From the IMG/VR virus record IMGVR_UViG_3300011431_000001, positions 1 through 54,285 of that record: 54,285 nucleotides of DNA, one strand, 5' to 3'. Below the pieces are notes generated by a model. It was not told where the DNA came from, made no database searches, and worked only from the letters and a program-made list of their open reading frames with translations. This document shows positions 1-54,285 of this stretch, one piece after another (positions within the stretch are counted from its first letter, which is position 1; every line of letters begins with the position of its first letter). The translations under genes and the position numbers were made by a program. This stretch comes from a virus.

Positions 1-123
1 CGTTTCTTTCAATATTTTGCATCTTTTAAGGGCAGTTCTTAAATAAGTCTTGCCCTTATTATCCATTTTTATGCCGGTCAATTCTTCTAATTGACTATAA
101 GAAAAATATTCGCCAGGAGTAGA
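1..123. repeat. Terminal direct overlap: 1-123 is identical to 54163-54285 (circular closure or terminal redundancy; unique length 54162 bp)
   Basis: Both ends read cgtttctttcaatattttgc...cgccaggagtaga; compared base by base by eye. Confidence 0.95.
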
Positions 124-186
124 TGAAGAAAGAATATTTTCTATCCTTAGCGTTTCGGCTGAAATCTGTTGTATTGATTTTGCCAT
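1..186 (-). CDS. 5' part (62 codons) of a wrap-around gene for a 151-aa winged-HTH-like protein; continues 54162->53893
   Basis: ATG at 186; MAKSIQQISAETLRIENILSSSTPGEYFSYSQLEELTGIKMDNKGKTYLRTALKRCKILKET reads in frame into ORF 53893-54243 through the overlap (456 nt in total). Confidence 0.7.
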   Translation of the reverse strand, partial: MAKSIQQISAETLRIENILSSSTPGEYFSYSQLEELTGIKMDNKGKTYLRTALKRCKILKET

Positions 187-210
187 TTATTATGTTTTTA
201 TAATTAAAAA

Positions 211-305
211 ATCATATCTTATCGGATCGCATCCAATCGAATCGTATCGCATCAAATCCTATCACATCGGATCCAATCGAATCAAATCTAATCCAGTCAC
301 ATCTC
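211..305 (-). repeat. Array 1: 19 contiguous pentamers ATCNN (NNGAU on the transcribed strand)
   Basis: atcat atctt atcgg atcgc atcca atcga atcgt atcgc atcaa atcct atcac atcgg atcca atcga atcaa atcta atcca gtcac atctc; 18/19 units start with ATC. Confidence 0.95.
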
Positions 306-312
306 AAAAAAG

Positions 313-879
313 TCATTCAATCCATTTCATACTTATTAATTCAAATCTACCATTATTCCCGCCACTAGCTGGCCTCCATGTACCTATTCCACGTAATTTA
401 CCAGCCTCTCTAATAACGGTCTCAAATACACTGGCTATAATTACATCATCTCCAATAAATACTTCAATTTCTCCTTCCCATTCATGTATAATTGGAAATT
501 TTCTTACTACTCTTGTCGTCCCCCCGGTCCTTCCATTGCTTGGAACAAATTGTGATACACCCATTAAGTCTTCCTTTTTTACTTTTGTGACAATATCGTC
601 GCTTATATAAATACCAGCTTTAAAATGTTTTGTATACAGCGATTTACCCTTGCCCGGTATTTGTATGCTTGAAAACTGAGCACAATCTTTAATGCAATTT
701 GAGATCATAATTCCCGGTATTTTTACAAACCCTTCTTTTGTAAAATGTGCCCTTTCTTTCCATATTCTTAAATCATATAAATCATCTCGTTCCTTTTCTT
801 CTTTTGGGAACTCAAATTGAAATGGCCTTCCGAATGTCACAGGCGTAAGACTTTTTAATTTACAAATTGCTCTTTTCAT
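313..879 (-). CDS. Hypothetical beta-rich protein, 188 aa; possible RAMP-like (Cas7/Csm3-type) fold, speculative
   Basis: ORF track; collinear motifs LTPVTFG, KIPGIMISNCIK, GIYISDD, RVVRKFPIIHEWEGEIEVFI, C-terminal Gly-rich GIGTWRPASGGNNGRFEL. Confidence 0.6.
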   Translation of the reverse strand: MKRAICKLKSLTPVTFGRPFQFEFPKEEKERDDLYDLRIWKERAHFTKEGFVKIPGIMISNCIKDCAQFSSIQIPGKGKSLYTKHFKAGIYISDDIVTKVKKEDLMGVSQFVPSNGRTGGTTRVVRKFPIIHEWEGEIEVFIGDDVIIASVFETVIREAGKLRGIGTWRPASGGNNGRFELISMKWIE

Positions 880-12446: not shown

Positions 12447-13126
12447 AATGGTTTCATGTATTTTGGGATACCCTGATTTTCTTCCGGCTTAATTTCCTTT
12501 TTACCCCTCGCCTTCCATTTAGAAAAATGATCTTTGTAGTCTGCTGGATTTTTATCGTAAATGCCTCCTCTCTCAAGCATTTTATTAAATTCTGACAATT
12601 CTTTCTCGTTTGTCCTGTTTGCGTTTACGAATCTGTCATCGTTCATCGCAACAGTCAGGCAATGTTCAATTGTATAAAAAATCGTGGGGGCTTCTCTCTC
12701 TCCCTGTATTGATTCTTTATTATTTATTATTGGTATGGGTTTCATTTGGGTTACCCGTTTGGTTTCTGTGGGGAAACCGTTTGGTTCTGATTCAGATAAC
12801 CGTTTGGTTTTGGGGCGACCGCCCTTTTTACCATGCAACTGATTAATTTCCTTTTTATATTCAATATCCTTTCTTATTTCATCCATAACTAAATTTATAA
12901 GTTCACCTTCATTTTTTTTTATAAATTTTTTTGAAATTCTGTTCCAATTTTTTTTAATTTTTGGCGAAATTCTTTTCAATTCTTTTAAATCTTCCGGTAT
13001 TGATCCATTATCAAATTGATAAATTAATAGTCGGATATAAATACCAAATTCTTCGTCTGTCCAGCCGATAGTACTTGCTAAAAGTCTTTTATAGAATAAC
13101 GGGAAATAATAGTCTCCCTTAGCCAT
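12443..13126 (-). CDS. DUF1376-like replication-associated protein
   Basis: YYFPLFYKRLLASTIGWTDEEFGIYIRLLIYQFDNGSIP; sits upstream of dnaB. Confidence 0.55.
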   Translation of the reverse strand: MAKGDYYFPLFYKRLLASTIGWTDEEFGIYIRLLIYQFDNGSIPEDLKELKRISPKIKKNWNRISKKFIKKNEGELINLVMDEIRKDIEYKKEINQLHGKKGGRPKTKRLSESEPNGFPTETKRVTQMKPIPIINNKESIQGEREAPTIFYTIEHCLTVAMNDDRFVNANRTNEKELSEFNKMLERGGIYDKNPADYKDHFSKWKARGKKEIKPEENQGIPKYMKPL

Positions 13127-53668: not shown

Positions 53669-53807
53669 AAATCTAAAATAAGTCTTTTATAAAAAATATG
53701 CAATAGTATTTTTACGAATAAATTGGATTATTTTTTTCTCATTGCGCGAATCAAAGCAATATCCGCCAAGTTTCGATGATCTTTTTCATGTATTAAAGAT
53801 AACAAAA

Positions 53808-53825
53808 AGCCCCAATTAAGGGGCT
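53808..53825 (-). terminator. Intrinsic terminator immediately after array 2
   Basis: Minus strand AGCCCC-uuaauu-GGGGCU followed by UUUUUGUU. Confidence 0.7.
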
Positions 53826-53829
53826 AAAA

Positions 53830-53889
53830 ATCTTATCATATCAGATCGCATCTCATCAAATCCGATCACATCTAATCGCATCTTATCGA
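53830..53889 (-). repeat. Array 2: 12 contiguous perfect ATCNN pentamers
   Basis: atctt atcat atcag atcgc atctc atcaa atccg atcac atcta atcgc atctt atcga. Confidence 0.95.
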
Positions 53890-53892
53890 ACA

Positions 53893-54285
53893 TCAATTAC
53901 TTATTTGTCCTATTATTGGCCGTTCTATTTCAAATATTTTTTTCCATTGAGCCGTAAATGCGAGGGTAGTTCCTAATCCGGCTGCAATAAGATTCATTGA
54001 TTTCTGTTCAACTTCCGGCAGCGATGGATAAATATTACTTTTTATAACACTGTCTGTTATCTTTTTAGCTCTTTTAATTCCTCTTCCAACTTTTTGAACA
54101 CTCTCAATAACTATGGGTGCGGCATTATCAATGCACAAAGTTTTTACTCCTTTCCCTCTTATCGTTTCTTTCAATATTTTGCATCTTTTAAGGGCAGTTC
54201 TTAAATAAGTCTTGCCCTTATTATCCATTTTTATGCCGGTCAATTCTTCTAATTGACTATAAGAAAAATATTCGCCAGGAGTAGA
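53893..54285 (-). CDS. 3' part of the wrap-around wHTH-like gene (151 aa in full; true ATG at position 186 of the first copy)
   Basis: The ORF stays open to the window end; HTH-like FSYSQLEELTGIKMDNKGKTYLRTALKRC followed by IRGKGVKTL. Confidence 0.7.
   Translation of the reverse strand, partial: STPGEYFSYSQLEELTGIKMDNKGKTYLRTALKRCKILKETIRGKGVKTLCIDNAAPIVIESVQKVGRGIKRAKKITDSVIKSNIYPSLPEVEQKSMNLIAAGLGTTLAFTAQWKKIFEIERPIIGQISN
54163..54285. repeat. Second copy of the terminal overlap (identical to 1-123)
   Basis: See 1-123. Confidence 0.95.

What the first reader, a model, noticed from the sequence alone, without database searches (positions are those of the whole stretch)
211..305. Intercistronic array of 19 phased pentamers (ATCNN, or GAU plus a 2-nt spacer on the mRNA)
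Seen in sequence:
- Read in 5-nt steps, 18 of 19 units start with ATC while the last two positions vary freely.
- The tract is not coding (period 5, with TGA stops in the minus frames).
- It is not a CRISPR, because there is no 25-40 nt repeat/spacer unit.
- It is not a slippage microsatellite, because the units differ.
- It begins 7 nt after the stop of ORF 313-879 and ends 24 nt before the ATG at 186. On the transcript it is therefore a (NNGAU)19 tract leading into the next start codon.
- A second same-orientation array follows that gene at 53830-53889.

Established precedents:
- Conserved triplets with 2-3 nt spacers are the binding signature of ring homo-oligomers on RNA, such as TRAP on 11 (G/U)AG repeats and HutP on UAG repeats.
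- Contiguous short DNA repeats are bound by RHH proteins such as omega of pSM19035 (heptads).
- Short-repeat centromeres flank type Ib par operons, and clustered hexamers define the P1 pac site.

Inference: the array is a platform for cooperative binding by an oligomeric protein. I do not recognise this 5-nt architecture as a described element.
Basis: partly seen in the sequence, partly recalled or inferred. Interest (0 to 1): 0.85.

Follow-up and report, generated by a model that had tools for sequence, protein, structure and literature searches.

The report
Phage VIPR guide-RNA repeat arrays
The run of five-base repeats is real. It most likely encodes guide RNAs of a VIPR system, a CRISPR-like phage weapon first described in 2026, in which a small Cas7-like protein coats the repeat RNA and uses the two variable bases of each repeat to find rival DNA; here the fixed triplet is GAU rather than the published GGY.

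Summary
There are 19 phased ATCNN units at 211-305 and 12 more at 53830-53889; nothing like this occurs in shuffled sequence or elsewhere in the window.

The upstream ORF 313-879 is a RAMP/Cas7-fold protein homologous to the SUSP1 Vipr protein (PDB 36pp; profile E 7.6e-14, hhalign 98.6%). The gene between the two arrays encodes a winged-helix protein with a helical hairpin, which fits a Vap accessory. Together they form a VIPR locus as described in two 2026 bioRxiv preprints. In those systems, vrRNAs made of pentanucleotide repeats are coated by one Vipr protomer per repeat, and the NN dinucleotides pair with double-stranded DNA while skipping one target base.

In about 100 related loci the same cassette recurs. 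The arrays are on the gene strand in the 18 loci checked against the vap homologue. The triplet differs between clades (GAU, GGC, GAC, GUC). In the loci aligned, GAU goes with a different Vipr G-loop (T/Y-W/F against R-F).

A 99%-identical strain differs mainly inside array 2, almost only at NN positions.

No natural target was found, so that test is inconclusive. No self-target exists.

Verdict: a new member of a very recently described kind, with a non-GGY (GAU) handle. It is not a TRAP-like translational platform.

The parts
313..879 (-). vipr gene: 188-aa RAMP (Cas7-like) protein with G-loop GIGTWRPASGGNNGRF. Predicted to bind one pentanucleotide repeat per protomer.
   Evidence: AF2 model pLDDT 86.7. 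Foldseek top hits are type VII Cas7, Csm3, Cmr4 and Cas7-11 (E about 1e-6, TM about 0.55). Profile against PDB sequences hits 36pp 'SUSP1 Vipr protein' at E 7.6e-14; phmmer gives 1e-5; hhalign gives 98.6%, E 1.4e-15 over 152 columns. No Pfam family; phrog_4652 of unknown function.
211..305 (-). vrRNA array A: 19 x (GAU NN) on the minus-strand transcript. NN code 5'->3': GT TG TA TT TC TG CC GT AG TT GC AC TC TG GC CC AA AT (TT).
   Evidence: The RNA is predicted no more structured than shuffles (z -0.34). Identical in strain L121.
187..210 (-). 3' end of array A: a run of six U that begins with the U of the last GAU (window 211 down to 206), then an A/U-rich spacer up to the vap start codon.
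   Evidence: Nearly every array block seen in relatives ends in AAG-xx-AAG(A/G) followed by T5-8, or in that motif plus a terminator hairpin.
1..186 (-). 5' part of the vap-like gene (151 aa in all). N-terminal winged helix.
   Evidence: Translation across the circular junction. AF2 pLDDT 89.5: wHTH at residues 10-70 plus a long helical hairpin at 73-141. Weak Foldseek matches to wHTH regulators. 124 homologue clusters, none with a Pfam domain.
53893..54162 (-). 3' part of the same vap-like gene. Positions 54163-54285 repeat 1-123.
53830..53889 (-). vrRNA array B: 12 x (GAU NN). NN code: (TC) AA GC TA GT CG TT GA GC CT AT AA (TT).
   Evidence: This is the hot spot of strain differences: 18 of 30 differences over 3.6 kb lie here, and 9 of 10 substitutions inside the array fall on NN positions.
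53800..53829 (-). GC hairpin plus U-run directly after array B. Intrinsic terminator and possible 3' cap of the vrRNA.
   Evidence: Terminator scan: stem 53825-53808 followed by TTTTGTT. Fold z -4.0. Equivalent hairpins follow the downstream arrays in L155, L160 and L169.

Best explanation
The tract is the DNA template of a VIPR guide RNA (vrRNA). The locus reads, on the minus strand: vipr (313-879), array A, a winged-helix accessory gene (vap-like), array B, then a terminator.

The mechanism below was shown experimentally for the homologous SUSP1 and P. fulva systems and is inferred here. The arrays are transcribed and matured into small RNAs. One Vipr protomer binds each 5-nt repeat, and the protomers form a helical filament. 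The conserved triplet (here GAU) is flipped out and held by the G-loop, thumb and RRM of two neighbouring protomers. The two variable bases of each repeat are displayed and pair with a DNA strand, skipping one target base per repeat. The target therefore reads NNxNNx...

The filament sits on double-stranded DNA and blocks transcription of a competing phage, prophage or satellite. The winged-helix protein is an accessory that may enhance this, as vap1 does in SUSP1.

For this phage the predicted protospacers are GTxTGxTAxTTxTCxTGxCCxGTxAGxTTxGCxACxTCxTGxGCxCC (array A) and AAxGCxTAxGTxCGxTTxGAxGCxCTxAT (array B). The last one or two AA/AU units plus the U-run probably serve as the 3' handle.
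For: Shown here:
1. gp188 is a Vipr homologue with a Cas7-type RAMP fold.
2. The arrays have three conserved and two hypervariable positions per 5 nt.
3. The cassette vipr - array - vap - array recurs in metagenomic relatives. In the 18 loci inspected against the vap homologue the arrays sit before and after it on the gene strand. In the wider strand-blind survey the same triplet classes are read on the vipr strand.
4. The triplet is clade-specific: GAU, GGC, GUC and GAC. In the 21 loci aligned, the GAU-array Viprs carry T/Y plus W/F at the residues equivalent to SUSP1 D177/W178, which contact G1/G2, whereas the GGC, GUC and GAC loci carry R-F. This points to specific protein-triplet recognition.
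5. A strain that is 99.2-99.9% identical over the aligned stretches differs mostly inside array B, and almost only at NN positions. That is what a reprogrammable guide should show.
6. Array B is followed at once by an intrinsic terminator on the gene strand, so it is transcribed.
7. There is no self-target: the best 1-nt-skip match in the phage's own genome is 61-62% of NN bases, the same as shuffled controls. This agrees with the preprint's finding for native systems.
8. The SUSP1 locus (L204) shows the same NNGGT arrays in both intergenic regions flanking vipr-vap1.

From the literature: vrRNA expression, RNP formation, one protomer per repeat, the 1-nt skip rule, transcriptional silencing, and vrRNAs of 9-16 and up to 30 repeats.
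Against: - The triplet is GAU, not the published GGY. The SUSP1 residue that holds G2 (R138) aligns with an invariant F in this subfamily, so the recognition chemistry must differ.
- No conserved structured 3' tail like the SUSP1 pseudoknot is visible. Array A simply ends in a U-run.
- gp151 has no detectable sequence similarity to SUSP1 Vap1.
- No natural target was found. Five 9-unit exact patterns in IMG/VR and one 10-unit pattern in GTDB genomes gave only chance-level hits that do not extend. These scans allow no mismatches, whereas the preprint accepts 80% or more NN identity, so the negative result is weak.
- Expression of small RNAs from this locus is not shown.
Confidence: 0.88

Rival explanations
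1. DNA-level array. The ATCNN repeats would be double-stranded binding sites for the winged-helix protein they flank. That would make them an operator for autoregulation, an iteron origin (P1 incC/incA-like), or a partition centromere coated by a protein filament.
For: Two same-orientation arrays flank a gene for a winged-helix protein with a dimerising helical hairpin. This architecture recalls repA/incC-incA and ParR/parC.
Against: - No partition NTPase or replication gene is adjacent; the neighbours are portal and scaffold genes.
- In the aligned loci GAU arrays go with a distinct G-loop of the neighbouring RAMP protein. In contrast, the winged-helix proteins of the GGC-type and GUC-type loci look very similar by eye (identity not computed).
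- Arrays are always on the transcribed strand in the loci checked, and the downstream one ends at a terminator.
- The homologous SUSP1 arrays are experimentally RNAs bound by Vipr.
- A 5-bp spacing would put successive proteins on opposite faces of the helix, with no room for a 17-kDa protein per site.
Confidence: 0.05
2. A TRAP/HutP-like ring or other RNA-binding oligomer binds the (NNGAU)19 leader and controls translation or termination of the downstream gene.
For: The triplet-plus-2-nt-spacer geometry matches TRAP sites (general knowledge). Array A ends 24 nt before the start codon.
Against: - Arrays also follow the gene and occur as 2-5 tandem blocks of up to 43 units.
- The NN positions turn over between strains while the rest stays fixed. 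That is not expected for inert spacers.
- The only RNA-binding fold encoded nearby is a Cas7-like RAMP homologous to a guide-RNA-binding protein.
- No TRAP- or HutP-like protein was detected among the four neighbouring proteins searched.
Confidence: 0.04
3. Packaging signal. The repeats would be a pac site bound by a small terminase, because they sit in the packaging and head module. A similar array lies between terminase and portal genes in an unrelated contig (L040).
For: The location is downstream of the TerL and portal genes. The L040 array lies between TerL and portal. The P1 pac site uses clustered short repeats (general knowledge).
Against: The cassette moves independently of packaging genes: in L120 it is next to a DNA methylase, and in L125 next to an unannotated 200-aa ORF that I only guessed to be nuclease-like. 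gp151 shows no terminase similarity. The RAMP partner and the clade-specific triplets are unexplained by this model.
Confidence: 0.02

Closest known systems
VIPR (Viral Interference Programmable Repeat) systems, type II of Escherichia phage SUSP1 and a Pseudomonas fulva prophage (bioRxiv 10.64898/2026.04.26.720920 and 10.64898/2026.04.26.720927)
   Same: - A roughly 20-kDa RAMP protein homologous to SUSP1 Vipr.
- Tandem pentanucleotide repeats with a fixed triplet and hypervariable NN, in the intergenic regions around vipr.
- A small accessory gene predicted to bind DNA.
- A phage-borne locus.
- Repeat numbers (12 and 19) within the reported 9-30.
- No self-targeting.
   Different: - The triplet is GAU (G1 kept, G2 replaced by A, Y3 = U) rather than GGY.
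- The G-loop reads T-W-R where SUSP1 has D177-W178-R179, and F stands in place of R138.
- The arrays flank vap rather than the vipr-vap pair.
- There is no recognisable hairpin leader or pseudoknot tail. Blocks end in AAGAU plus a U-run or a terminator.
- The Vap has no sequence similarity to Vap1.
- The target is unknown.
Class 1 CRISPR-Cas backbone (Cas7/Csm3/Cmr4 on crRNA)
   Same: Same protein fold: RRM core, G-loop and thumb. A protein filament with fixed nucleotide periodicity forms on a guide RNA, and bases are flipped out periodically.
   Different: - The period is 5 nt with three bases sequestered, not 6 nt with one flipped.
- No CRISPR repeat-spacer array was detected (repeat and RNA-family scans). 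Cas genes were not searched for.
- The guide is interleaved with the handle instead of being a contiguous spacer.
TRAP-trp leader (11 x (G/U)AG with 2-3-nt spacers)
   Same: The RNA carries triplets separated by 2-nt spacers, and one protein subunit binds per triplet.
   Different: - TRAP is a closed 11-mer beta-wheel that regulates attenuation, and its spacers carry no information.
- Here the binder is a RAMP.
- The arrays vary in length, lie on both sides of a gene, and their spacers are the hypervariable, information-bearing part.

Membership tests
VIPR system | A Vipr protein, i.e. a minimal RAMP (single RRM core, G-loop, thumb), is encoded next to the repeats. | tested here: met
   Foldseek to Cas7-type RAMPs. 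Profile hit to PDB 36pp SUSP1 Vipr at E 7.6e-14. hhalign 98.6%. G-loop GIGTWRP...GRF aligned to SUSP1 GVGDWRPRFGRF.
VIPR system | Tandem pentanucleotide repeats in which a conserved triplet alternates with hypervariable NN. | tested here: met
   18 of 19 and 12 of 12 units carry the triplet. NN information is about 0.1 bit.
VIPR system | The conserved triplet is GGY (unit YNNGG). | tested here: not met
   The triplet is GAU. The preprint allows 'a related consensus' and names NNNGG, YNNNG and NNNNG. GAU is not named in the text I could read, and figure S17 is not held. Related loci with the same proteins do use GGC.
VIPR system | vrRNAs of about 9-16 repeats (up to 30). | tested here: met
   19 and 12 units.
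VIPR system | A conserved structured 3' tail caps the repeat tract (a pseudoknot in the SUSP1 clade). | tested here: inconclusive
   Array A ends in a U-run with no structure (z -0.34). Array B is followed by a terminator hairpin. Relatives share an AAG-xx-AAG-(G/A)-U(n) ending.
VIPR system | An accessory vap gene, predicted to interact with DNA. | tested here: met
   gp151 is a winged helix plus helical hairpin and is syntenic with vipr in more than 20 loci. It is not similar in sequence to SUSP1 Vap1, so which of vap1-6 it represents is unknown.
VIPR system | Mostly carried by viruses or proviruses. | tested here: met
   The window is a circular 54,162-bp phage genome with TerL, an SPP1-type portal, scaffold and capsid genes.
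VIPR system | The NN code matches DNA of competing elements under the 1-nt skip rule, with no self-target. | tested here: inconclusive
   No self-target. Exact 9-10-unit patterns found no extendable match in IMG/VR or GTDB genomes. A search tolerating mismatches was not possible.
VIPR system | vrRNAs are expressed as small RNAs and co-purify with Vipr. | not testable with these tools
   Needs RNA-seq and pull-down experiments.
CRISPR-Cas | A repeat-spacer array with 25-40-nt repeats, plus adaptation genes. | tested here: not met
   The tandem-repeat scan and Rfam show no CRISPR array in the window. Only a solo RAMP gene is present.
TRAP/HutP-type RNA-binding attenuation proteins | A ring homo-oligomer of that family is encoded, and its site lies in a leader that controls a downstream gene. 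| tested here: not met
   No such family was found among the four neighbouring proteins searched. Arrays also lie in the 3' UTR and in multi-block tracts.

The most novel reading that the evidence does not exclude
The fixed triplet may itself be an evolvable specificity code. Within one Vipr subfamily the handle has switched between GGC, GAC, GUC and GAU, and apparently also CGC, CAC, CUC, AAC and GUU. The third base is always a pyrimidine. In the loci aligned, the GAU arrays go with a different G-loop (T/Y-W/F against R-F), and the two GUC loci differ from the GGC loci at one residue next to the thumb (T against S/C). This would create mutually orthogonal Vipr-vrRNA pairs, so that co-infecting phages cannot load or hijack each other's guides. 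The GAU type, which lacks the G2 contact seen in the cryo-EM structures, would be an undescribed recognition mode and a ready-made second, orthogonal channel for VIPR tools.
Probability: 0.35. Interest if true: 0.6.

Novelty: new member of a known kind. Interest (0 to 1): 0.5.

Why it matters
VIPR is a weeks-old class of RNA-guided DNA recognition that has been proposed as the ancestor of CRISPR effectors. This window adds a complete, uncultivated phage genome, probably of a Bacteroidota host, with a compact locus whose handle is GAU instead of GGY. Its relatives give a natural series of handle switches with matched protein changes.

That series can be used directly to map how Vipr reads its handle and to build orthogonal Vipr/vrRNA pairs. 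It also shows that searches keyed on YNNGG will miss part of the family.

For genome annotation, the practical lesson is that period-5 'ATCNN'-type tracts next to a roughly 190-aa orphan gene should be read as guide arrays, not as microsatellites or protein-binding operators.

Tried and rejected
- Microsatellite. A scan of IMG/VR for six phased ATC units returned mostly pure pentanucleotide microsatellites. The window arrays differ because their NN positions are heterogeneous.
- Coding tract. The 34-aa ORF 212-316 and a 25-aa ORF across array B stay open in the x-[IM]-[RG]-x-D frame. I rejected this because the long arrays in L125 have stops in all frames and variation follows period 5.
- pac site or small terminase, iteron origin, ParR- or omega-type centromere. 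All were considered from the gene order and from L040. I dropped them once gp188 proved to be a RAMP and the cassette was seen in other gene contexts.
- Known phages. No DNA or protein match in the phage collection for the region or for gp151.
- gp188 relatives in IMG/VR by peptide patterns: none found.
- Rfam: no family matched.
- A terminal-motif scan (GAT..GATAAGATNTT) found only L040 and two TnpB-associated 10-mer microsatellites.
- Target search: no convincing hit.
  - Local 1-nt-skip scans of all arrays against all held sequence, with 0-, 2- and 3-nt-skip controls.
  - Five exact scans of IMG/VR and one of GTDB genomes.
- GTDB genomes. These gave only relatives of 45% identity or less, in MAGs of many phyla, and no locus in which GAU was the dominant triplet. 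The host remains uncertain; one Ginsengibacter MAG carries close homologues of both proteins.

Full report
OBSERVATION. The tract is exactly as described. Positions 211-305 read as 19 consecutive 5-nt units, 18 starting with ATC and one with GTC. Positions 53830-53889 read as 12 further ATC units. Four phased ATC units occur 23 times in the window, all inside these two tracts, and never in 100 dinucleotide-preserving shuffles. A triplet-agnostic scan finds no other phased array in the 54 kb. The last two positions of the unit carry about 0.1 bit of information.

The window is a circular assembly whose first 123 nt repeat at the end. The gene starting at the ATG at 186 therefore continues through position 1 to 53893 and encodes 151 aa. 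The two arrays flank that single gene in the same orientation.

One detail of the finding is inaccurate. One of the three minus-strand frames is open through array 1 (ORF 212-316). The tract is nevertheless non-coding, as shown below.

SURROUNDINGS. All genes in this region are on the minus strand. The order is: large terminase (4152-2716), SPP1-type portal (2547-1105), gp188 (879-313), array A, gp151, array B, a GC hairpin with U-run (53825-53808), a small membrane ORF, then scaffold and capsid genes. On the transcript the arrays read (NNGAU)n.

COMPARATIVE EVIDENCE. gp188 has about 100 homologue clusters in public protein data. A scan of metagenome contigs with their alignment found 556 confirmed loci, of which the 80 best were kept. 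gp151 looked like an orphan in a single-sequence search, but tblastn showed a homologue directly downstream of the gp188 homologue in more than 20 of those loci. A profile search then found 124 clusters.

In the 18 loci whose sequence I read against the vap homologue, the stretch between the two genes is a period-5 array on the gene strand, and so is the stretch after the second gene wherever that sequence is held. These arrays often come as several blocks, each ending in AAG-xx-AAG(A/G) plus a T-run. The downstream one is often followed by a terminator hairpin.

The conserved triplet differs by clade. GAU occurs in the closest relatives of the window (L120, L121, L124-L127, L129, L131). GGC, GUC and GAC occur in others. 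A wider strand-blind survey adds CGC, CAC, CUC, AAC and GUU, read on the vipr strand; for CGC, CUC and AAC the block endings support that orientation (L217, L220, L202). The third base is always a pyrimidine and the NN positions are uninformative everywhere.

L125 carries more than 150 units, in blocks of up to 43, with stops in all frames. This rules out a coding explanation.

A strain that is 99.2-99.9% identical over the two aligned stretches (about 5.6 kb; L121) has an identical array A. In contrast, 18 of its 30 differences over 3.6 kb lie in the 65 nt around array B. Inside that array, 9 of 10 substitutions fall on NN positions, and one unit has been gained.

WHAT THE PROTEINS ARE. The AlphaFold model of gp188 (pLDDT 86.7) matches Cas7-family RAMPs: type VII Cas7, Csm3, Cmr4 and Cas7-11, with Foldseek probability 1.0, E about 1e-6 and TM about 0.55. 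A profile of the family hits one PDB sequence, 36pp 'SUSP1 Vipr protein', at E 7.6e-14. The single sequence gives 1e-5, and hhalign gives 98.6%.

gp151 folds (pLDDT 89.5) as an N-terminal winged helix followed by a long helical hairpin. Its Foldseek matches to wHTH regulators are weak.

IDENTIFICATION. [quoted passage not shown] The components are a roughly 20-kDa ancestral RAMP (Vipr), an accessory gene (vap, which is WH- or HTH-like in several types), and vrRNAs made of 9-16 (up to 30) pentanucleotide repeats in which GGY alternates with hypervariable NN.

For phage SUSP1 and a P. fulva prophage the preprints show the following:
- The vrRNAs are expressed and co-purify with Vipr.
- One protomer binds each repeat in a right-handed filament.
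- The GGY bases are flipped out and held by the RRM, G-loop and thumb.
- The NN bases pair with DNA while skipping every third target base.
- Binding silences transcription of rival phages or satellites.

The SUSP1 locus, which I fetched (L204), shows the same NNGGT arrays in both intergenic regions around vipr-vap1. The window locus has the defining parts of such a system.

HOW IT DIFFERS. The handle is GAU, not GGY. In an alignment of 21 Vipr proteins from this subfamily with SUSP1 Vipr, three points stand out:
- The residues equivalent to SUSP1 D177/W178, which contact G1/G2, are T-W in most GAU-array loci (Y-W and T-F in two others), but R-F in every GGC, GUC and GAC locus.
- The R138 equivalent, which holds G2 in SUSP1, is an invariant F in the whole subfamily.
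- The two GUC loci differ from the GGC loci at the preceding residue (T against S/C).

So the GAU handle goes with a distinct RAMP G-loop, and the residues seen to hold G2 in SUSP1 are not conserved in this subfamily. By contrast, the winged-helix proteins of the GGC and GUC loci look very similar by eye (identity not computed). This is what specific Vipr-handle recognition predicts.

The preprint text mentions 'a related consensus' and the units NNNGG, YNNNG and NNNNG. GAU is not named, but I could not see figure S17 or the data files, so I do not claim it is undescribed.

Other differences are these. The arrays flank vap rather than the vipr-vap pair. No hairpin leader or pseudoknot tail is visible: array A RNA is no more structured than shuffles (z -0.34), and array B is capped by the terminator hairpin. 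gp151 shows no sequence similarity to SUSP1 Vap1.

FUNCTIONAL TEST OF THE CODE. [quoted passage not shown]

The phage does not target itself. The best match is 61-62% of NN bases, equal to order-shuffled controls, as reported for native systems.

No natural target emerged. Scanning all arrays against all sequence held, with 0-, 2- and 3-nt-skip controls, gave no excess for the 1-nt skip. Five exact 9-unit patterns in IMG/VR and one 10-unit pattern in GTDB genomes returned only the few hits expected by chance, none of which extends. This negative result is therefore weak, and the target remains unknown.

RIVALS. Four alternatives were considered:
- A DNA-level operator, iteron or centromere for the winged-helix protein. 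This fits the flanking geometry but not the RAMP partner, the strand bias, the terminator, the distinct Vipr G-loop of the GAU clade, or the 5-bp spacing.
This fits the triplet-plus-spacer geometry but not the arrays downstream of the gene, the multi-block tracts, or the turnover of the 'spacers'.
- A pac site. This is contradicted by the cassette's mobility between gene contexts.
- Microsatellite and coding explanations. These are excluded by NN heterogeneity and by stops in all frames of the long arrays.

VERDICT. It is best explained, with confidence about 0.88, as the guide-RNA arrays of a VIPR system in an uncultivated phage.

The kind is known, though only since 2026. This locus is a new member with a GAU handle. 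Its relatives suggest that the handle triplet itself evolves together with the Vipr G-loop. The host is probably a Bacteroidota, since one Ginsengibacter MAG carries close homologues of both proteins, but this is not established.

Noticed in passing
L121 3560-4360 (single copy at window about 53745-53800): The near-identical strain L121 carries a roughly 750-bp insertion with a 144-aa ORF immediately after the array-B terminator. The insertion is bounded by two copies of a roughly 55-nt sequence that is present once in the window. It looks like a small cassette gained or lost by recombination between direct repeats.
   Followed up: partly
L040 1186-1240 (IMGVR_UViG_3300028920_001575): An unrelated 5.4-kb viral contig has an 11-unit heterogeneous ATCNN array, ending GATAAGATTTT on the other strand, between the terminase stop and the portal start. 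It is antisense to both genes, and there is no vipr on the contig. It could be an orphan vrRNA or a coincidence.
   Followed up: partly
L124-L236 (e.g. L132 GAC, L160 GTC, L217 CGC, L215 CAC, L220 CTC, L202 AAC, L185 GTT): Across loci encoding gp188 homologues, the conserved triplet of the period-5 arrays is clade-specific and often contains no GG. The third base is always a pyrimidine. Arrays end in AA-triplet-AA-triplet followed by a T-run. The orientation of the CAC and GTT classes was not checked independently.
   Followed up: partly
L125 1434-2771: One 3.2-kb soil contig devotes about 800 nt to GAU arrays: more than 150 units in 5-6 blocks, the longest 42-43 units. This is longer than the 'up to 30 repeats' quoted in the structural preprint. 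The blocks may be staggered or multi-guide arrays.
   Followed up: no
L122 589-638 and L123 14347-14399: A TnpB-like ORF is followed by a (TTGATAAGAT)n 10-mer repeat that resembles the terminal GATAAGAT motif of the GAU arrays. This is probably an unrelated microsatellite.
   Followed up: no
window 424-526: Six of the 30 differences between the window and strain L121 cluster within about 100 nt of vipr (codons about 118-152, the thumb-proximal part). The rest of the 3.6 kb outside array B and the insertion junction is identical.
   Followed up: no
window 12915-12990: A 32-nt tandem repeat (2.3 copies) lies in a T-rich intergenic stretch, next to further short repeats at 12707-12881. It may be a regulatory or origin region.
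   Followed up: no
window 1-123 and 54163-54285: The two ends of the window are identical over 123 nt, so the record is a circular or terminally redundant assembly of 54,162 bp. Base composition is strongly skewed (T 35%, A 29%, C 20%, G 16%), and every long ORF examined is on the minus strand.
   Followed up: yes
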